A stretch of 64,000 nt of DNA, taken from the IMG/VR virus record IMGVR_UViG_3300010885_017276, positions 32,001-96,000 of that record. One strand, given 5' to 3'. Below, one piece after another: positions 2,218-28,227 of this stretch. Below the pieces are notes generated by a model. The model saw only the letters and a list, made by a program, of their open reading frames with translations. It was not told the DNA's origin and searched no databases. This DNA is from a virus. The position numbers and the translations under genes were made by a program. Each line of letters begins with the position of its first letter. Positions within the stretch are counted from its first letter, which is position 1.

Positions 2218-2925
2218 ATGACGTACAACAATTATTCATTCAGCTTAGGTAAAGGTAAATTTTACTTAAAAAGCAAAACTCCACAACAAGGTTACGAAGA
2301 AGTAATCTATGGAATGGAAAAAGACAAAGTAACATACCACAGGTATGTAGACAACATTAAAGGCACCTTGAAATACTTTGATGTGAAAGAAGTAGACTAC
2401 CAAGGAAAAAAACTTTCTTTTCTAGAAGTTAGTTTGGTTGACGGAGAAGTATCTAATAAAGTTTCTGTACCTTTGAAAAACTCAAAAGGAAACTACACAG
2501 ATGAAGTTAAGGCTATCTTGTCGTCTTTGAATAACGCAGAGGTAGGTGATGAGTACACAATGGCTATGCGTAAGACAGCGACTGTTGGTAAAAACGGAAA
2601 AGAGTATATAAACATTGTTTGTTACTTGAATTATGTAAACCAATTAGACGCAAACGGCAAAGGTGTATCAACAGGATATATCTCTTATGAAGATGTACCA
2701 AAACCAGAAAAGGATGAAGACGAAGATCTTGGAACTACTTGGAATTGGAAACCTGTTAACAAGTTCTACGCACAAAAAGTAAAAGAGATTCAAGCTAAGT
2801 TTCCAACTTATGCAAAAGCAGAAACTCCACAAGCAGAAGTAGTGCAAGAGACAGTACCTGCACCTGCAGTTGCTCAAGAGATTGCATTCCCAATGTTGGA
2901 AGAAGATGATGATTTACCTTTTTAA
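2218..2925 (+). CDS. single-stranded DNA-binding protein (probable)
   Basis: beta-rich body, flexible linker and acidic C-terminal tail EEDDDLPF. Confidence 0.7.
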   Translation: MTYNNYSFSLGKGKFYLKSKTPQQGYEEVIYGMEKDKVTYHRYVDNIKGTLKYFDVKEVDYQGKKLSFLEVSLVDGEVSNKVSVPLKNSKGNYTDEVKAILSSLNNAEVGDEYTMAMRKTATVGKNGKEYINIVCYLNYVNQLDANGKGVSTGYISYEDVPKPEKDEDEDLGTTWNWKPVNKFYAQKVKEIQAKFPTYAKAETPQAEVVQETVPAPAVAQEIAFPMLEEDDDLPF

Positions 2926-2956
2926 TAATATTAATAAACAATAACAGTAAATAAAA

Positions 2957-3361
2957 ATGACAACAGAACAAAAAAACCCAATGGATTACGGTTACTTAGG
3001 AACTGAAGAAGTAACAATTACATCAGCAGAGTTTATGCTATTGAAGCGTGCAGTAGAGCACGGTATTAATGCTACCTTAGAGACTTACTTACCAGAAGTT
3101 ACAAAATATGTTAACATAGAGACTTCTGAATTAGTAGATGAGTTTACTGAAGAAGACTTGACATCAGGCAAAATTGTATTAGTGACAGATAGAGAGGCTA
3201 CATTTAGTCCTAAAAATGTTAAATACCAGTATAACTCAAAGATTACTCCGGATATGGTTCAAAGCCAAGAGCTTATTATGAAGATCCATGAGAGAAATGT
3301 AGAAATGGGTATAGCTAAAAGTGTAGAAGAATTAGAAGCTTTAAAAGAAGAAAAAAAATAG
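2957..3361 (+). CDS. hypothetical protein
   Basis: ORF in operon with genome-typical codon use. Confidence 0.7.
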   Translation: MTTEQKNPMDYGYLGTEEVTITSAEFMLLKRAVEHGINATLETYLPEVTKYVNIETSELVDEFTEEDLTSGKIVLVTDREATFSPKNVKYQYNSKITPDMVQSQELIMKIHERNVEMGIAKSVEELEALKEEKK

Positions 3362-3670
3362 ATGAAAGGACATGAGGTAATCTCTCTGTACTTGAAACAA
3401 AATCTAAGTCTTATAAAAGAGCAATTGGGGGAGGGGTGTAAGCATCTCTCCTTTTCTAAGGAAAAATCATTTAATCCTGAGACTAATCAATACGAGACGT
3501 ATGATGCTTTTGACGCAGTGATGTATAATGATTTTAATGGTACAGACAGAGTGAAATACAGAATAGACAAACCTCTTGCACAATTGAACCAAGATGATTT
3601 TCACAGTCTTATGTTTAATCTAAATAGCAGATCTTATGAAGGAGATGGAGGAAATAGAGAGACAGTATAA
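3362..3670 (+). CDS. hypothetical protein
   Basis: ORF abutting upstream stop. Confidence 0.65.
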   Translation: MKGHEVISLYLKQNLSLIKEQLGEGCKHLSFSKEKSFNPETNQYETYDAFDAVMYNDFNGTDRVKYRIDKPLAQLNQDDFHSLMFNLNSRSYEGDGGNRETV

Positions 3671-3833: not shown

Positions 3834-5375
3834 ATGTTACAAATAGGAAAAGAAGCTAAAGAATCTTTAGTAAGAGGTATAAACACTGTTGCAGATGCAG
3901 TCAAGACCACAATGGGTGCAGAAGGCAAGACAGTAATTATCAGAAACAAGATGGGGTTCAACCCACATGTTACGAAGGATGGAGTTACCGTTGCTGAAAG
4001 TATTGAATTAGAAGATGAGTACGAAGAGCTTGGAGCCAAGCTGATTAAGTCTGCAGCACGAAGAACTGTTGACATGGTTGGTGATGGAACTACAACATCT
4101 ACTGTTATCACACAAGAACTAGTAAACAAAGGCCTAGAAAAATTAGAAAGCGGTATGTCTCACGTTGAGCTACGTGAAGGAATGCAAATAGGCCTGCAAG
4201 ATGTTATCGTTGCACTTCATTCTTTGAAGAAGGAAGTTCACGACAAAGAAATAAAGCAAATTGCTACGATCTCTGCAAACAACGATGTTGTTCTTGGTGG
4301 TATCATTGCTGATATTTACAAAAAGATTGGCTCTGAGGGGACTATAGACGTTCAGGAGGGTGTAAGTAAGGATACAGATGTAGCTTATATCGAAGGCATG
4401 TCTTTAGACAGAGGATGGGCGTTACCCCACTTTGTTACAGACGAGCATACAATGACAGCTATGATGGAAGACGTATTAGTTATGATTTATGATGGTAAGA
4501 TTAATGCTATTACTGATGTAGCCAGTTCTGTTAGGAAAGCACAAGCAGAAGGTAAAGGGTTGTTAATTTTTGCTGAGGATATTGACGAAGGTGTTATGAC
4601 TATGCTTGTTAAGAGTAAGATGCAAGGTACCTTCAGAGTTGTAGCCTGTATGAATCCTGATTTTGGAGCTAACAGAACTAACATTTTGAATGACTTAGCT
4701 GTTTTTACCTCAGCCGAGGTGTTTACTCCTAAGTTTTCTACTGAGGTTAAGCTAGGTTTTGCTAAAAAGATCATTGCTGACAAATCAAGAACAGTTGTAA
4801 TTGTAGAGGATACCGATACAGCCAAATTAAAGGAAAGAATCGAGACTATTTCACAACAAATCCAGAATACAGACGATGTTATAGACCTAGATAAGCTTAA
4901 TAAACGAATGGCTAACCTAAAGAACTCAGTTGCGGTGGTCACTGTTGGAGGTATGAATGGATTAGAGGTCAAAGAACGTAAGGATCGGATTGATGATGCG
5001 GTAAGTGCAGTTAAATCTGCTTTAGAAGGTGGATTTGTAGCTGGTGGAGGTTCAACATTGTTGTTTATTTCTAAGTATAGAATGCGTAGAACCCTGAAAG
5101 GTGGTCAAAAAGACGGTTACAGCTTGATCAAGGAGGCTATCCAGAAGCCGTTTGAGCAAATCTTGTTGAATGCAGGTCTTGAAAAGGACAAGTACTCCCG
5201 TAAGGTTAGCAAATATGGCAAAGGTGTCAATGTTAAGACTCGTAAGGTCGAAAACTTGCTAGACAAAGGTGTTATTGACTCTGCTAAGGTGGTAGAGGTG
5301 TCTCTAGAGAACGCAAATTCTATTGCTTGCTTGGTTCTACAGACAGATTGTTTAATTTCAGGTAAAGGTTTATAG
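3834..5375 (+). CDS. groEL: group I chaperonin GroEL (phage-type, no GGM tail)
   Basis: VTKDGVTVA, GDGTTTSTV, GFVAGGG and VIDSAKV motifs. Confidence 0.95.
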   Translation: MLQIGKEAKESLVRGINTVADAVKTTMGAEGKTVIIRNKMGFNPHVTKDGVTVAESIELEDEYEELGAKLIKSAARRTVDMVGDGTTTSTVITQELVNKGLEKLESGMSHVELREGMQIGLQDVIVALHSLKKEVHDKEIKQIATISANNDVVLGGIIADIYKKIGSEGTIDVQEGVSKDTDVAYIEGMSLDRGWALPHFVTDEHTMTAMMEDVLVMIYDGKINAITDVASSVRKAQAEGKGLLIFAEDIDEGVMTMLVKSKMQGTFRVVACMNPDFGANRTNILNDLAVFTSAEVFTPKFSTEVKLGFAKKIIADKSRTVVIVEDTDTAKLKERIETISQQIQNTDDVIDLDKLNKRMANLKNSVAVVTVGGMNGLEVKERKDRIDDAVSAVKSALEGGFVAGGGSTLLFISKYRMRRTLKGGQKDGYSLIKEAIQKPFEQILLNAGLEKDKYSRKVSKYGKGVNVKTRKVENLLDKGVIDSAKVVEVSLENANSIACLVLQTDCLISGKGL

Positions 5376-6392: not shown

Positions 6393-6809
6393 ATGGAACT
6401 TATATCAACGCATCCGATCAAGAAGTCTGATCTAGGTTTCCACGGTAATCTTTTTGGGGGTAAGCTATTAGCATGGATGGACGCAGCAGCCGCAGCATTT
6501 GCAATGCAGACTTGCGATACTCCCAGGATGGTTACAGTTATGATAGATAAGTGTTTGTTCAAAAAACCAGCAAAGGAAGGACAGCTAATCAAGATATACG
6601 GAGAAGTATCCCAGATAGGTAACACATCCATTACAATATATATGGAGGCTCGGTCTCACAATGTATATTCAGGACTACAGTCTACTATACTTTCGACAGA
6701 GATGAAGTTTGTAAGAATAGACGAGGGGGGAGACCCAATACCAATCTTAGAAAAGGTAAAAATAAAATACAGTCAGGTGGCGAAATTGGTAGACGCAGAT
6801 CGTAGGTAG
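6393..6809 (+). CDS. acyl-CoA thioesterase (hotdog fold, YciA-like)
   Basis: DLGFHGNLFGGKLLAWMD, FKKPAKEG, GNTSI and FVRIDEGG.P motifs. Confidence 0.85.
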   Translation: MELISTHPIKKSDLGFHGNLFGGKLLAWMDAAAAAFAMQTCDTPRMVTVMIDKCLFKKPAKEGQLIKIYGEVSQIGNTSITIYMEARSHNVYSGLQSTILSTEMKFVRIDEGGDPIPILEKVKIKYSQVAKLVDADRR

Positions 6810-6870
6810 CATCATTTACAATCAGCCTTAAACGTGGTAAATATTATAGGTTCGAATCCTATCCTGACAA
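6771..6870 (+). ncRNA. tRNA-like RNA with Leu/Ser-type D and T arms but aberrant anticodon region
   Basis: acceptor GTCAGG/CCTGAC, D arm GCG-AAATTGGTAGA-CGC, T arm ATAGG-TTCGAAT-CCTAT; the 48 nt between lack a canonical anticodon arm. Confidence 0.7.
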
Positions 6871-6872
6871 AC

Positions 6873-6946
6873 GTCCTCATAGCTCAGTCGGTTAGAGCAA
6901 ATGACTCATAATCATTAGGTCGCAGGTTCGAGCCCTGCTGGGGACA
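6873..6946 (+). tRNA. tRNA with CAT anticodon, probably Ile2 (lysidine) rather than Met
   Basis: full cloverleaf GTCCTCA/TGGGGAC; anticodon arm AATGA-CTCATAA-TCATT; GACTCATAATC context as in Ile2; CCA not encoded. Confidence 0.9.
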
Positions 6947-6978
6947 CTGGACTAAACTAAACTAAAAAAATAATAAAA

Positions 6979-25054: not shown

Positions 25055-25749
25055 TGGCAAATACAAAATTATTAGATTTACCAAAAATCTACGAAAACGA
25101 AGGGGGTAAGTATCCCCAACATACCGGAAAGCCTAAGCTCAGTTACTCAGCGTACACATCATTCTGTGAGGCAGCCTACAGAGGGGACTTCTTTGCTAAC
25201 TACTTCCTAGGTATCCGGAGTGAGGGTAACATCTTTACGGAGTATGGAAGCAAGTGCGGTAAGTTATTTGAAACAGATACAGACAGCTCAGACCTATCTG
25301 ACTTTGATGTAAGTGTTATCAGAGATATAGAAAGACCCCCAAATGCCTTGTATGAGGTAGAGATTGTTGTTGATAGGGGATCTTATGTTATTCAAGGGTA
25401 CATAGATAGAGAGTATCTAGATATTGAAGGCAATCTTGTAATCAGCGATTTAAAGACTGGCTCTATAGAAAAGAAAGCCAAGGACTACGCTAGTCAAGAC
25501 TACCAACAAACTACTTTATACGCCTATCAGAGAGAGTTAGAGGGGGAACATATCATATATTCAGGGGTCATCCTGCTAGATCGTAAGGGTAACGGCCAAG
25601 AAAAGTACCCTTTGAGATTAACCGGAGAGATTGAGTGGATACCTACACCTTACTCTAAAAAGAGAGCAGAGTTGTTCTTAAGTAAGTTTGATGCTACTGC
25701 TAAAAAGATTGAGGAGTATCATAAAATTTATAAAAAATATTTTGTGTAA
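25054..25749 (+). CDS. PD-(D/E)XK (RecB-family) nuclease
   Basis: LSYS, GYID, DLKTG and QTTLY motifs. Confidence 0.85.
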   Translation: MANTKLLDLPKIYENEGGKYPQHTGKPKLSYSAYTSFCEAAYRGDFFANYFLGIRSEGNIFTEYGSKCGKLFETDTDSSDLSDFDVSVIRDIERPPNALYEVEIVVDRGSYVIQGYIDREYLDIEGNLVISDLKTGSIEKKAKDYASQDYQQTTLYAYQRELEGEHIIYSGVILLDRKGNGQEKYPLRLTGEIEWIPTPYSKKRAELFLSKFDATAKKIEEYHKIYKKYFV

Positions 25750-25772
25750 TTAAAATAAAGGTTGTACCTTTG
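25741..25772 (+). promoter_or_regulatory. sigma-A promoter of the RNA gene cluster
   Basis: TTTG-N20-TACCTTTG. Confidence 0.8.
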
Positions 25773-25956
25773 CAAAATAAAATTAGTAAAAATTTATCAG
25801 TACTCCCTAAGTCAAAGTGTTATATAGCATTGGAAGTCTAAGACAAGCCAAGACTGTCTGTAAGGGGAAATCAGTAGGTAATCTGATTAAAAAAAGCTTT
25901 TGTGCATTATGGTCGAGGAGGCACTCTTTAAACAGAATCCATACACAAAAGCAATT

Positions 25957-26030
25957 GGTTTGGTAGCTCAGTTGGATAGAGCAACAGACTTCTAATCTGT
26001 AGGTCGTAGGTTCGAATCCTACCCGAATCA
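25957..26030 (+). tRNA. tRNA-Arg(TCT)
   Basis: cloverleaf; anticodon arm ACAGA-CTTCTAA-TCTGT; T arm GTAGG-TTCGAAT-CCTAC. Confidence 0.93.
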
Positions 26031-26044
26031 CAGATTAAAATAAC

Positions 26045-26392
26045 TAAGCTGTGTAAAGCGTCAGAACTTATAATCTGATAGAAGTTAAAGGCTAAACATT
26101 GAACCTTTGTAAACTAAGGAGTAGCAGACACTACATAAAAATTGGGAGAATGTCATCTTTACCAAAACCTATAATTTACATAAAGATATTTACAGAAATG
26201 TAAAATGTGTTGTTCCCTTGAGAAAGGAATATAGGAGTAACAAATATAAATGTTAACAACACAAATGAGTTCTCGGCAAGTAGTTAATGGTTGCCCTTGT
26301 GACAGGCTTAAATGTACTTACCATGGTGAATTAACTACGTGACCCTACTCTTACTAGACTCCATGTCTGTAATTGAGGGTGCTAATAACGCG
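26045..26392 (+). ncRNA. candidate large, highly structured ncRNA of unknown class
   Basis: about ten helices, two GNRA loops and two pseudoknot-type pairings; no ORF; lies between tRNA and tmRNA. Confidence 0.7.
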
Positions 26393-26444
26393 TAATATAA
26401 TTTACAAAAACATACAAAATTGTAAACTATATAACACATTAAGG

Positions 26445-26764
26445 GGGGGTGACTGGTTTTGACAGGTTACCAATAATTAATACAATCAGCCAGAGAGATA
26501 ACTGTAAACTAAGGTGAATTTTTTAAATGGCAAAAACATTTCTCGTGTAGTATCTCAAGGAGACAACGCACAAATCGAAGCTAACATGAACAAAGTATTC
26601 TCTCTATTGGGAGAAGAAGTTGCTGTAGCAGCCTAAATTCAAAGGATTTCTCTATTAGATTAAATAGAGTGGTGGAATCGTCAAGTGAGATTGACCCCAA
26701 TTAAGCTGTATAAATTGTATTAATGAACGTAATTTGGACGGGGGTTCGACTCCCCCCACCTCCA
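26445..26764 (+). ncRNA. ssrA: tmRNA
   Basis: GGGGGTG/CACCTCC-A acceptor with G3:U70; GACTGGTTTTGAC 5' motif; T arm GGGGG-TTCGACT-CCCCC; tag ORF 26529-26636 ending VAVAA*. Confidence 0.93.
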
Positions 26765-26870
26765 CAAATGTTTAACGCATGAACATACTTATTAAATTAT
26801 TAGTACTCGCTGTGCCTTTAGGGCTATCAGCAAAACCTTTAATCAGAGCATTTAAAAACAGAAACAAAAA

Positions 26871-27137
26871 ATGAAAACAATCAAAATTGACGAAAATTAC
26901 TACATTTCCAGAGAGGACAGCCACAACTTCATTCTCCGTTACAGAGAAAACAAGGTAATCACAAAAGGGGGAGAAGAAAAGGAAGTTTTTTCAGAGAACA
27001 ACTACTACTACCCCAACGTATCGGGGTGCTTAAAGAAGTACCTAGACATAACTCAGACTAATGCAAAAGATGTTAAAGATTGTATCCAAGTAACACAAGA
27101 ATGCTATGAAAAAATAAGCAAATTAAAATTTAACTAA
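26871..27137 (+). CDS. hypothetical protein
   Basis: ORF preceded by a 31-aa hydrophobic ORF (26779-26874) with ATGA overlap. Confidence 0.7.
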   Translation: MKTIKIDENYYISREDSHNFILRYRENKVITKGGEEKEVFSENNYYYPNVSGCLKKYLDITQTNAKDVKDCIQVTQECYEKISKLKFN

Positions 27138-27217
27138 TTTGCAAATATCAGATATTAATCGTATCTTTGTTCTTTAAAATTCAGCACCTCTTTCGTAAAT
27201 CGGGGTGCTTTTTTTTC
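27138..27217 (+). promoter_or_regulatory. sigma-A promoter immediately followed by a terminator-like hairpin
   Basis: TTTG-N20-TATCTTTG (27138-27169), then AGCACCTC/GGGGTGCT stem plus T-tract. Confidence 0.65.
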
Positions 27218-27249
27218 CGACATACATAACTAATAATTTTATTTTAACA

Positions 27250-28227
27250 ATGAGTATTTTTACTGAAAGAAAGAACTACAAGCCATTCGAGTATAATGGT
27301 ATTACCGACCCACTTATCAACGCTATGTGGGCAAGTCATTGGACTCACAACGAATTTAATTTCTTGAATGATGTCCAAGATTACAAAACAAAATTGTCCC
27401 CTGAAGAACAAGAGGTAGTCAAAAGAGCTATCTTGTTGACATCACAAGTAGAGGTAGCTGTTAAGTCCTATTGGTCTAACATAGGAAAGCTTCTACCTAA
27501 GCCGGAGATAGCGGACATGGGGGCTGTGTTTGGGGGAGTTGAGGTGATTCACTCAAAAGCTTACGCAGAGATTTTATCTAAGTTAGGATTAGAGGATCAG
27601 TTCAATGATATTTTTAACGAACCGGTTGTCGTAGGTAGGGTAAACTATTTGTCAAAGTATATCAACAAGATTTACAAGAATGACCACAAAAACATTTGTT
27701 ACTCCTTGGTTCTTTTCACATTGTTCACAGAGTACACAGCTTTGTTCTCACAGTTTTATACTATCCTAGGCTTTAATAGATTCAGAGGTGTTTTGAAAGA
27801 TGTGGCCAATGTTGTACAATACACATCAAAAGAAGAAAACTTACATGCTGAAGGAGGCATCGCATTGCTGAACCAAATCAGAGCAGAGCATCCGGAGTTG
27901 TTTGACCAAGAGTTTGTACAAAAGATACAAGATGAAGTTCAAGAGGCTTTCAAAGCAGAATCAGATTTGATTGATTGGATTTTATCAGGGTACGAGAATG
28001 AGTTTTTATCTCCCACAATATTGAAAGGGTACATTAAGATTAGATTAAACGACTCTCTAGTAAAAATTGGTATGGAACCGGCCTTTGATATAGATCCGGA
28101 AATAAAAGAGAAGACTTTGTGGATGGAAGAGGAAGTTTACGCAAGTGCATTGACAGATTTTTTTCACAAGAAGCCTATCGATTACTCGAAGAAAATGAAA
28201 GCATATAACGAAGAAGAATTATTTTAA
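27250..28227 (+). CDS. nrdB: ribonucleotide reductase class Ia beta subunit
   Basis: EVIHSKAY (Fe ligands and radical Tyr), EENLH, DFF C-terminus; ATG at 27250. Confidence 0.93.
   Translation: MSIFTERKNYKPFEYNGITDPLINAMWASHWTHNEFNFLNDVQDYKTKLSPEEQEVVKRAILLTSQVEVAVKSYWSNIGKLLPKPEIADMGAVFGGVEVIHSKAYAEILSKLGLEDQFNDIFNEPVVVGRVNYLSKYINKIYKNDHKNICYSLVLFTLFTEYTALFSQFYTILGFNRFRGVLKDVANVVQYTSKEENLHAEGGIALLNQIRAEHPELFDQEFVQKIQDEVQEAFKAESDLIDWILSGYENEFLSPTILKGYIKIRLNDSLVKIGMEPAFDIDPEIKEKTLWMEEEVYASALTDFFHKKPIDYSKKMKAYNEEELF

What the first reader, a model, noticed from the sequence alone, without database searches (positions are those of the whole stretch)
26045..26392. Ornate ~350-nt non-coding RNA between tRNA-Arg and tmRNA
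Seen: nested helices GAGAA..TCAT/ATGA.TTCTC (26146-26274) enclose ATCTTTA/TAAAGAT, TTTACA-GAAA-TGTAAA and TGTGTTGTT/AACAACACA (with an internal GAGA-capped hairpin). CCTATA (26168) and TATAGG (26230) form a pseudoknot-type pair. GTAGTTAAT/ATTAACTAC (26280-26338) encloses ACAGGCTTA, which can pair with the 5' TAAGCTGT (26045). An ACCCT/AGGGT domain lies 3'. There is no ORF. Known: large ornate RNAs such as GOLLD and ROOL occur in phage tRNA clusters and their function is unknown. Inference: a compact member of such a class or a new one, released from the tRNA-tmRNA transcript.
Basis: partly seen in the sequence, partly recalled or inferred. Interest (0 to 1): 0.8.

Follow-up and report, generated by a model that had tools for sequence, protein, structure and literature searches.

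The report
Uncatalogued knotted RNA of phages
The gene-free stretch between the phage's tRNA-Arg and tmRNA genes encodes a roughly 300-base, intricately folded RNA from a widespread, phage-only family that no RNA catalogue lists; its job is unknown, but it is strongly conserved, abundant in a cultured relative, and invaded by selfish nuclease genes.

Summary
The conserved core is window 26087-26385 (+). It has relatives in 95 other viral loci, including the cultured Cellulophaga crAss-like phage phi14:2, and in only 2 contigs of 185,579 bacterial and archaeal species. Rfam 15 gives no hit even at E<=10, so it is not GOLLD, ROOL, RNase P RNA or a group I intron.

On 73 distinct sequences my hand-drawn structure pairs 91.8% of cells (shuffles 82.8%, slid 38-46%), and 45 of 55 pairs show compensatory change. 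Supported: a 5' hairpin, a GNRA-capped hairpin (73 of 73), a long helix, the AGTTAAT and ACCCT helices, and a pseudoknot between the TGAGAA loop and TTCTCG.

In phi14:2 the matching intergenic region is, by my mapping, one of two reported as transcribed above most protein genes, early and lasting. Some relatives carry HNH homing-endonuclease cassettes inside the most conserved block.

Function is unknown. My best guess is a stable trans-acting RNA, processed from the tRNA-tmRNA transcript, that binds a host factor.

This scan had already found the same family on other phage DNA (four follow-ups), with the same open question.

The parts
25765..25772 (+). Only match to a Bacteroidota-type -7 promoter word in 25700-26900. 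Candidate promoter for the whole RNA cluster: leader, tRNA-Arg, this RNA, tmRNA.
   Evidence: Regex scan. The consensus word is recalled from memory, not from a call. Inference only.
25957..26031 (+). tRNA-Arg (anticodon TCT), upstream neighbour.
   Evidence: ARAGORN; RF00005, 73.4 bits.
26041..26059 (+). 5' word TAACTAAGCTGTGTAAAGC, shared only by close relatives. It is not part of the family core and its role is unknown.
   Evidence: One match in the window. CTAAGCTGTGT lies next to the element in 9 loci.
26087..26385 (+). Conserved core of the RNA gene, from the foot of helix h1 to the GCTAA tail.
   Evidence: Iterated nhmmer: most full-length relatives match from profile position about 44-48 to about 365. 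The profile lies on window 26039-26391 at 288 bits. Helix coordinates.
26088..26107 (+). h1: AAGG/CCTT stem around the near-invariant loop CTAAACATTGAA, which contains a short inner stem.
   Evidence: helices 1-3. The inner A-U pair becomes G-C in 4 sequences. The inner U.G pair is present in 67 of 73, which marks the + strand as the RNA strand.
26108..26180 (+). h2: TGTAAA (26108-13) pairs with TTTACA (26175-80) around a variable insert of 0-157 nt across the family.
   Evidence: A-U to G-C in 9 sequences at one pair, helix 4; for insert lengths and the window-only words.
26181..26188 (+). Conserved joining strand TAAAGATA.
   Evidence: Nearly invariant columns in alignments A1 and A2.
26189..26204 (+). 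P3: 6-bp hairpin capped by a GNRA tetraloop (GAAA, 26195-98).
   Evidence: GNRA in 73 of 73 members. Strong covariation, helices 5-6, for example C-G 45, G-C 15, U-A 10, A-U 3 at one pair.
26206..26263 (+). P4: TGTGTTG (26206-12) pairs with CAACACA (26257-63). It encloses P5 and a variable hairpin, P6 (26230-56).
   Evidence: helix 7: 98.8% of cells paired, and all 7 pairs show changes on both sides. Also found by RNAalifold.
26213..26229 (+). P5: TTCC/GGAA hairpin with the 9-nt loop CTTGAGAAA.
   Evidence: helices 8-9. The third pair reads C-G 47, G-C 8, A-U 6.
26219..26224 (+). Pseudoknot 5' strand, TGAGAA, in the P5 loop.
   Evidence: helix 10: 96.1% of cells paired, and 4 of 6 pairs have a change on both sides, each in a single sequence.
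26270..26275 (+). Pseudoknot 3' strand, TTCTCG, inside the near-invariant block AATGAGTTCTC(A/G)GCAAGT. This block is also where the homing-endonuclease cassettes of relatives are inserted.
   Evidence: for the pairing; for the cassettes.
26281..26337 (+). P7: TAGTTAAT (26281-88) pairs with ATTAACTA (26330-37). The base is nearly invariant and the tip is variable.
   Evidence: helices 11-12.
26338..26385 (+). 3' domain: joining strand CGTG; P8 ACCCT (26342-46) with AGGGT (26376-80); P8b TTAC (26351-54) with GTAA (26369-72); a variable tip; and the tail GCTAA (26381-85).
   Evidence: helices 13-15.
26445..26767 (+). tmRNA gene, downstream neighbour.
   Evidence: RF00023, 93.7 bits, full model. 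ARAGORN misses it.

Best explanation
Window 26087-26385 (+) is a gene for a stable non-coding RNA of about 300 nt. It belongs to an uncatalogued RNA family found almost only in phages.

The fold has three modules:
- a 5' hairpin module (h1, h2);
- a pseudoknot module, made of GNRA-capped P3 and helix P4 enclosing hairpin P5, whose loop pairs with the strand just 3' of P4;
- a 3' module (P7, P8, single-stranded tail).
Species-specific hairpins are grafted on at fixed points.

Inferred: it is transcribed with tRNA-Arg and the tmRNA from one upstream promoter and is cut out by the enzymes that mature those RNAs.

Inferred, least certain: it acts in trans, early and throughout infection, as a rigid ligand or ribonucleoprotein core for a conserved host factor of Bacteroidota-type hosts, possibly in translation or RNA surveillance, to the phage's benefit.

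My odds for each step: real structured RNA gene of this family, 0.95; processed from a polycistronic RNA-gene transcript, 0.6; trans-acting binder of a host factor, about 0.35.
For: Family:
- Two exact-word scans of viral contigs gave 57 and 55 loci, 94 different ones. Iterated nhmmer found 105 matches in the 95 loci searched, counting phi14:2.
- Conserved blocks are collinear with phi14:2.
- Only 2 contigs among one genome each of 185,579 bacterial and archaeal species hold the core word.
- Only phi14:2 matches among 50,697 GenBank phage records.

Structure (73 distinct sequences, 55 pairs):
- 91.8% of cells are paired, against 82.8% in shuffles (0 of 500 reach the observed value) and 38-46% when partners are slid.
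- 45 pairs change on both sides.
- The covariation score is 0.232, against 0.088 in shuffles and 0.03-0.06 when slid.
- RNAalifold independently recovers P3, P4 and P8.
- G.U pairs fix the + strand (U.G in 67 of 73 in h1).

Not coding: no ORF exceeds 34 aa, and the variable inserts range from 0 to 157 nt.

Expression:
- Passages of bioRxiv 10.1101/2020.03.07.982082 report two long phi14:2 intergenic regions transcribed rightward, above most protein genes, present at the first time point and not declining.
- In KC821624 the element (2899-3364) and the tmRNA (about 4031-4502) lie in the two long gaps between GenBank gp006, gp010 and gp015.
- Contigs of one freshwater RNA library lie on the element, for example 26088-26202 with 4 differences. 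Two joints skip the variable hairpins, as relatives would. This is weak evidence, because DNA can be present in such libraries.

Context:
- In 31 of 95 loci ARAGORN finds a tRNA or tmRNA within 1.5 kb, and every one is on the element's strand.
- A tmRNA-like hit lies within 1 kb downstream in 18 of 95 loci, 1-86 nt away in 12.
- No terminator-like site lies in 25600-27300.

Trans action: no protein family is consistently adjacent; the largest cluster occurs in 32 of 95 loci at a median distance of 1.5 kb.

Selective weight: homing-endonuclease cassettes sit in the most conserved block.
Against: - No partner, ligand or phenotype is known, and nothing here shows binding.
- The RNA ends are not mapped. 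The window's promoter call rests on a recalled short consensus.
- The gene numbers of the phi14:2 paper could not be checked because its supplement is closed, so equating the element with the 'g004-g005 junction' RNA is my mapping, not the authors' statement.
- Pseudoknot covariation is thin: each double change occurs in one sequence.
- Only about a fifth of loci have a tmRNA nearby, so a tmRNA-linked role is not general.
- Invariant unpaired nucleotides at the junctions (AATGAG, GCAAG, CGTGA) would suit a catalytic or ligand-binding core as well as a protein-binding one.
- The alignment is MAFFT-based and I drew the structure from these same sequences, which favours the unslid structure in control (b).
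Confidence: 0.55

Rival explanations
1. It is a ribozyme, either trans-acting (cutting or joining other RNAs, as RNase P does) or self-processing, and of a class not yet described.
For: It has a compact pseudoknotted core, a universal GNRA loop (73 of 73) and clusters of invariant unpaired nucleotides at helix junctions. A natural 'mini' form keeps only the pseudoknot module and the 3' module. It sits among RNAs that need processing.
Against: It matches no ribozyme family in Rfam at E<=10. No conserved flanking substrate or exon is seen: the sequence 5' of h1 and 3' of the tail varies. From recall, the large orphan bacterial RNAs solved so far turned out to be protein partners or self-assembling RNAs, not enzymes.
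Confidence: 0.15
2. It is a self-assembling RNA-only multimer, a smaller analogue of the GOLLD and ROOL cages that phages also carry beside tRNA genes.
For: It shares the phage setting next to tRNA genes and the orphan status. Its ornate periphery sits on a fixed core. Conserved loops such as the h1 loop have no partner within the monomer in my structure. The cryo-EM preprint on GOLLD and ROOL was seen only as a search listing.
Against: It is not a member of either family. It is half their size or less (269-534 nt).
Confidence: 0.1
3. It is a cis-acting leader or processing platform for the downstream tmRNA or tRNA, rather than an RNA with a job of its own.
For: It lies 55 nt upstream of the tmRNA here, and 1-86 nt upstream in 12 other loci. 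[quoted passage not shown]
Against: No tmRNA-like hit lies within 1 kb downstream in 65 of the 80 loci that have room for one. In phi14:2 a 106-aa ORF separates the two. Tandem copies exist. Sequence conservation is far beyond what a spacer needs.
Confidence: 0.07
4. It is itself a selfish, intron-like mobile element, so its conservation reflects spread and not function.
For: Homing-endonuclease genes, which usually live in introns, are embedded in it in some phages. It occurs in very different phages, on contigs of 4 to 306 kb.
Against: There are no conserved exons and no group I core: RF00028 does not match the element or the inserts. The core is conserved while the peripheral hairpins have diverged completely, which indicates long purifying selection and not recent transfer. 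Most copies have no nuclease gene; only about 11 of about 98 viral loci have a cassette or its remnant.
Confidence: 0.05

Closest known systems
The abundant intergenic 'long non-coding RNA' of Cellulophaga crAss-like phage phi14:2 (bioRxiv 10.1101/2020.03.07.982082; passages read)
   Same: Same family. Four collinear conserved blocks align over KC821624 2899-3364. It has the same strand relation to a downstream tmRNA. It gives the only expression data: early, lasting, and above most protein genes.
   Different: The paper gives no sequence family, fold or function. It does not say that the second region is a tmRNA, which is named only in its methods. My mapping to its 'g004-g005 junction' rests on GenBank coordinates, because its gene table is in a closed supplement. 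The phi14:2 copy is longer (466 nt) and has an expanded P3.
GOLLD and ROOL RNAs (Rfam; large ornate RNAs of phages and prophages)
   Same: Orphan, ornate, phage-borne RNAs that often lie beside tRNA genes. A conserved core carries variable peripheral hairpins.
   Different: No match to either model at E<=10. The RNA is 269-534 nt, against my recalled figure of roughly 500-800 nt for those families. The hosts appear to be Bacteroidota-type and not Lactobacillales, rumen Firmicutes or Actinobacteria (recalled). No evidence of multimerisation.
Stable RNAs of unknown function in the phage T4 tRNA cluster (species 1 and 2; recalled, no call)
   Same: Small stable non-tRNA transcripts made and processed with a phage tRNA cluster, still without a function.
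   Different: No sequence relation was tested. The T4 RNAs are about 120-140 nt (recalled) and are not known to be pseudoknotted or widespread.
Group I introns as hosts of HNH/NUMOD homing endonucleases
   Same: A structured RNA gene carries an HNH_3/NUMOD4 ORF at a fixed internal point, with ORF-less remnants in other copies.
   Different: RF00028 does not match the element or the inserts, although it finds other introns in the same locus L046. The non-ORF part of an insert is only about 130 nt. It contains a terminator-like hairpin, its own promoter-like word and a diverged second copy of the pseudoknot module, so it looks like a gene-splitting cassette and not an intron.

Membership tests
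Unnamed phage RNA family that includes the phi14:2 intergenic RNA | Collinear conserved blocks: the h1 loop, the GNRA hairpin, the P4/P5 block, AATGAGTTCTCNGCAAGTAGTTAA, TAACTACGTGACCCTAC, GAGGGTGCTAA. | tested here: met
   The window scores 288 bits against the family profile over 26039-26391. Blocks align with phi14:2 and with 72 other distinct sequences.
Unnamed phage RNA family that includes the phi14:2 intergenic RNA | Shared secondary structure with compensatory changes, including the P5-loop pseudoknot. | tested here: met
   91.8% of cells paired, 45 of 55 pairs change on both sides, and 0 of 500 shuffles reach the observed values. Covariation in the pseudoknot itself is thin.
GOLLD (Rfam) | Match to the family covariance model and its conserved core. 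| tested here: not met
   No row for it among all matches up to E=10 in window 25700-26900 or in phi14:2.
ROOL (Rfam RF03087) | Match to the family covariance model and its conserved core. | tested here: not met
   No row for it at E<=10.
Group I intron (RF00028) | P3-P9 catalytic core recognisable by the covariance model. | tested here: not met
   No match at E<=10 in the window or in phi14:2. The model does find introns elsewhere in L046, so the search works on this kind of DNA.
Group I intron (RF00028) | Interrupts a conserved gene, so conserved exon sequence flanks both ends. | tested here: not met
   The flanks vary among members. Here the neighbours are complete tRNA-Arg and tmRNA genes, 55 nt away on each side.
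Bacterial RNase P RNA (Rfam) | Conserved regions CR-I to CR-V and the P4 long-range helix, recognisable by the models. | tested here: not met
   No match at E<=10.
tmRNA, one-piece or permuted (RF00023, RF04321) | tRNA-like domain and tag reading frame; match to the model. | tested here: not met
   The models match only 26445-26767 and weak pieces inside or after it. Nothing matches in 26032-26444.

The most novel reading that the evidence does not exclude
The RNA is the core of a new kind of phage take-over device: either a trans-acting ribozyme, or the RNA subunit of a ribonucleoprotein that captures a conserved host factor in translation or RNA surveillance. Its core of about 200 nt (pseudoknot module plus 3' module) is so constrained that homing endonucleases use its gene as a landing site, and they carry a spare copy of the pseudoknot module to keep the RNA working after they split it.
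Probability: 0.2. Interest if true: 0.9.

Novelty: new variant of a known kind. Interest (0 to 1): 0.7.

Why it matters
Large RNAs with complex folds and strong conservation are rare, and past examples proved to be enzymes, guides, ribonucleoprotein cores or self-assembling cages. This family has several features that make it tractable:
- It is compact, with a minimum of about 270 nt and a natural mini form of about 200 nt.
- It is abundant in nature, with about a hundred viral contigs found from two exact words.
- It is confined to phages.
- It has a cultured representative, phi14:2 on Cellulophaga baltica, in which the matching region is already known to be among the most abundant transcripts.

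That combination makes an old open question, what orphan phage RNAs do, directly testable by deletion, pull-down and structure work.

The homing-endonuclease cassettes add a second point of interest. They appear to split a structured RNA gene and bring their own replacement module. I found no description of this in print for an RNA gene, although I ran no search aimed at that specific point.

Tried and rejected
- **Known RNA families.** Rfam at gathering score on the whole window and at E<=10 on 25700-26900 and on the phi14:2 copy gave nothing on the element above chance. The best row is snR82 at 18 bits against a gathering score of 60.
- **Group I intron for the inserts.** RF00028 at E<=0.1 over six loci hit only other places in L046.
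- **rRNA mimicry.** The TAAAGATA strand plus the GNRA hairpin reminded me of the 23S GTPase-centre region. The family profile against the E. coli rrnH operon (L099) gave no hit at E<=100. A Bacteroidota rRNA could not be obtained, because control genomes give no loci.
- **Host homologues.** A family-wide search centred on Flavobacteriaceae was not possible, since 'of' needs a genome handle. Only the exact-word scan of genome contigs stands.
- **Tetraloop receptor.** No column covaries with the GNRA type; the mutual-information values are flat.
- **Protein partner by neighbourhood.** 1,029 ORFs within 5 kb in 95 loci were clustered, and no family is consistently adjacent.
- **The 5' word 26041-26059 as a repeated phage promoter.** It occurs once in the window.
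- **First exact word from the P7 tip.** It matched 0 viral contigs, because that part is variable.
- **Reads.** Bins 25800-25873, 26355-26428 and 26799-26900 had no cover in four RNA runs. I draw nothing from this.
- **Literature.** Searches, with passages or outlines read, found no paper that names or folds this family. The 8,495 IMG/VR candidates of PMC10690425 and the gene table of the phi14:2 paper are in supplements I could not open, and either may bear on novelty and on the gene-number mapping.
- **Recalled resemblances not tested.** T-box, ZTP, pistol, CRISPR-repeat mimicry and Y RNA were considered from memory only and were left out of the argument.
- **T-arm-like hairpins** in peripheral positions (7 of 73) are too few to support a tRNA-mimic reading.
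Full report
**What is there.** The window is bases 32001-96000 of a 124,055-bp viral record with direct terminal repeats.
- ARAGORN finds tRNA-Arg(TCT) at 25957-26031.
- Rfam finds a full-length tmRNA at 26445-26767 at 93.7 bits, which ARAGORN misses.
- The 413 nt between them hold no ORF above 34 aa.
- They match no Rfam 15 family even at E<=10.
- Folded alone, the stretch is only modestly more stable than shuffles: z = -2.13, with 3 of 100 shuffles as good.

A single sequence therefore cannot decide the question.

**Relatives.**
- A blastn search of GenBank phages found one related genome, Cellulophaga crAss-like phage phi14:2 (2 records of 50,697, both the same genome).
- A local alignment showed four collinear conserved blocks spread over the element.
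- Two of these blocks, used as exact words, pulled 57 and 55 loci out of the IMG/VR viral contigs, 94 different ones.
- An iterated nhmmer profile then matched 105 places in the 95 loci. It lies on the window at 26039-26391 with 288 bits.
- Most full-length relatives start at profile position about 44-48 and end at about 365. This puts the family core at window 26087-26385.
- The stretch 26041-26082 is shared with only nine close loci.
- Full-length members are 269-534 nt long.
- The same core word occurs in only 2 contigs of one genome each for 185,579 bacterial and archaeal species. Both are metagenome bins labelled Clostridium sp., with 27-31% G+C, and both hold full-length copies.

The family is in effect phage-only and is not a copy of a host housekeeping RNA.

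**Structure.** Alignments of 32 and 73 distinct sequences (A1; A2) show blocks of near-invariant sequence separated by inserts that differ completely in length and sequence. RNAalifold on A1 recovers three helices, and 13 of its 18 pairs show compensatory change.

I drew a fuller structure by eye and from column statistics and tested it on A2 with the count of structure pairs.

| Measure | Observed | Shuffles | Partners slid |
|---|---|---|---|
| Cells paired | 91.8% | 82.8% (0 of 500 reach it) | 38-46% |
| Covariation score | 0.232 | 0.088 | 0.03-0.06 |

Of the 55 pairs, 45 change on both sides.

The helices, in window coordinates:

| Element | Coordinates | Notes |
|---|---|---|
| h1 | 26088-26107 | Stem around the near-invariant loop CTAAACATTGAA, which has an inner stem whose A-U becomes G-C in four members |
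| h2 | 26108-13 with 26175-80 | Variable insert of 0-157 nt |
| P3 | 26189-26204 | GNRA loop in 73 of 73 members |
| P4 | 26206-12 with 26257-63 | All seven pairs covary |
| P5 | 26213-29 | 9-nt loop |
| Pseudoknot | 26219-24 (TGAGAA) with 26270-75 (TTCTCG) | Loop of P5 with the strand 3' of P4 |
| P7 | 26281-88 with 26330-37 | Variable tip |
| P8 / P8b | 26342-46 with 26376-80; 26351-54 with 26369-72 | |
| Tail | 26381-85 | GCTAA |

The pseudoknot is paired in 96.1% of cells, but its double changes are single-sequence events in 4 of 6 pairs. I rate it as well supported by conservation and only lightly by covariation.

Extra support comes from the cassette-bearing relatives described below. 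Each duplicated module there has a loop that matches its own downstream strand (my reading of the rows printed). Frequent G.U pairs, such as U.G in 67 of 73 sequences in h1, would be C.A mismatches on the other strand. The RNA is therefore read from the + strand.

- Four of its helices are P3, P4 with P5, P7 and P8, and they stand.
- The outer GAGAA..TCAT/ATGA.TTCTC helix, ATCTTTA/TAAAGAT and the CCTATA/TATAGG 'pseudoknot' all use words from the variable h2 insert. These words are present in 2, 5 and 1 of 73 members respectively.
- The proposed pairing of ACAGGCTTA in the P7 tip with the 5' TAAGCTGT fails a co-occurrence test. Nine loci have the 5' word, two loci have the P7 word, and none has both.

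**Context and expression.**
- In 31 of 95 loci ARAGORN finds a tRNA or tmRNA within 1.5 kb, and every one is on the element's strand (duplicates not removed).
- A tmRNA profile finds a hit within 1 kb downstream on the same strand in 18 of 95 loci, or 15 of the 80 with room for one. The distance is 1-86 nt in 12 of them and 1 nt in L083.
- The link to tmRNA is thus frequent but not obligatory.
- In the window no terminator-like site lies between 25600 and 27300.
- The only match to a recalled Bacteroidota-type -7 promoter word in 25700-26900 is at 25765, upstream of the whole cluster.
- Co-transcription and release by tRNA-type processing are therefore plausible but remain inferred.
- No protein family is consistently adjacent among 1,029 ORFs within 5 kb.

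For expression I followed a lead from earlier notes of this scan. I read passages of the phi14:2 RNA-polymerase preprint (bioRxiv 10.1101/2020.03.07.982082). It reports two long intergenic regions, the 'g004-g005 and g005-g006 junctions'. [quoted passage not shown]

In KC821624 the element lies at 2899-3364, between GenBank gp006 and gp010. The tmRNA lies at about 4031-4502, between gp010 and gp015. These are the two long rightward gaps at that end of the genome. The paper's gene table is in a supplement I could not open, so the equation is my mapping.

Contigs of one of four freshwater RNA libraries lie on the element, for example a 118-nt contig on 26088-26202 with four differences. They include joints that skip exactly the variable hairpins, 26113 to 26174 and 26290 to 26330, as relatives would. 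This shows presence in an RNA library, not transcription.

**Homing-endonuclease cassettes.**
- In L003, L006, L036 and L053 (intact) and L046 (frameshifted), the family match is interrupted at the near-invariant block AATGAGTTCTCAGC by 0.5-0.7 kb holding a 131-161-aa ORF.
- All four intact ORFs match HNH_3, and two of them also match NUMOD4.
- L024, L044, L101 and L102 carry ORF-less versions.
- A gapped word for the cassette's 3' part finds 9 viral loci.
- The cassette is not a recognisable group I intron.

By my reading, a cassette consists of a terminator-like hairpin, a promoter-like word, the ORF, and a compact, diverged second copy of the P3-P4-P5 pseudoknot module that runs into the normal 3' module. 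The stems of that mini module differ between cassettes while pairing is kept.

In L036 and L053 the original P4/P5 is gone. In L023 no family word (h1 loop or P5 loop) lies within about 0.87 kb upstream of the mini form, so it looks free-standing there. This suggests that the pseudoknot module plus the 3' module is the functional minimum. It also suggests that the nuclease cassette brings its own replacement module.

**What it is and how it may work.**
- Solid: a structured RNA gene of an uncatalogued phage family.
- Likely: a stable RNA cut out of an RNA-gene transcript.
- A guess I commit to at about 0.35: a trans-acting ligand or ribonucleoprotein core for a conserved host factor.

The reasons for that guess are the lack of a linked phage protein, the early and lasting abundance in phi14:2, and the spread across unrelated phages whose promoter words and one cultured host point to Bacteroidota.

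The rival readings remain open: ribozyme 0.15, self-assembling multimer 0.10, cis-acting leader 0.07, selfish element 0.05.

**Novelty.** Four literature searches and four papers read in part turned up no name, fold or function for this family. Only the unexplained phi14:2 transcript is in print.

Earlier follow-ups in this scan reached the same identification on other phage DNA.
- the tested pseudoknotted structure on 73 sequences;
- the count of tmRNA linkage;
- the homing-endonuclease cassettes with their duplicated module.

Noticed in passing
L003:6391-7554, L006:3589-4459, L036:10480-11222, L053:604-1560, L046:12324-13298 (frameshifted): HNH_3/NUMOD4 homing-endonuclease genes sit inside the RNA gene at its most conserved block. 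Each comes with a terminator-like hairpin, a promoter-like word and a compact second copy of the pseudoknot module. They are not recognisable as group I introns.
   Followed up: partly
L023:367-552; L100:4-383; L024:3112-3630; L101 and L102: In L023 no h1-loop or P5-loop word lies within about 0.87 kb upstream of a 'mini' form of the RNA (mini pseudoknot module plus 3' module), so it looks free-standing. In L100 a mini form follows the 3' end of another copy. L024, L101 and L102 carry cassette remnants without an ORF.
   Followed up: partly
L020:3854-4674 (also L028 and L054), L098:978-1673: Two copies of the RNA gene lie head to tail in some phages.
   Followed up: no
window 25780-25956: The 170-nt leader between the candidate promoter and tRNA-Arg is also ORF-poor. 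It has relatives only in L010 and L095, directly upstream of their copies of the element. An RNA-library contig (depth 628) lies on 25892-25971. It may be a second small RNA.
   Followed up: partly
window 26041-26059: The word TAACTAAGCTGTGTAAAGC occurs once in the window. Its core, CTAAGCTGTGT, recurs about 40 nt upstream of the element in nine loci and in front of a tRNA in L081. It is a possible promoter or processing signal for RNA genes.
   Followed up: partly
window 26445-26767: The tmRNA is missed by ARAGORN but matches Rfam in full. In three RNA libraries, contigs about 91% alike run from 26453 to 26762-26766 with sequencing-adapter letters directly at both ends. This suggests that mature molecules of relatives end there.
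   Followed up: no
window 26108-26119 and 26503-26514: The same 12-nt word, TGTAAACTAAGG, stands in the element (h2 5' strand) and in the pseudoknot-1 region of the tmRNA. It is also in the phi14:2 tmRNA. This may be chance or an old exchange.
   Followed up: no
window 6771-6870: A 100-nt match to the tRNA model (33.8 bits) lies directly in front of tRNA-Met (6873-6947). ARAGORN does not call it. It may be a tRNA with an insert, or a tRNA-like RNA.
   Followed up: no
L073, L040, L083, L060, L065, L088, L081 (peripheral hairpins of the element): Hairpins that look like a tRNA T arm (4-bp stem, G-C closure, TTYRANY loop) cap variable hairpins in 7 of 73 members, against 0.095 expected in shuffles. 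Five of the seven are at the tip of P7.
   Followed up: partly
L046:8614-10120: Two group I intron matches above the Rfam cut-off and one weaker match lie close together in one viral contig, about 2-4 kb from its copy of the element.
   Followed up: no
L097:1636-2117, L098:978-1488: The only two 'bacterial' contigs with the element are metagenome bins labelled Clostridium sp., with 27-31% G+C. They are either phage contigs binned with a genome or a sign that the family reaches beyond Bacteroidota hosts.
   Followed up: partly
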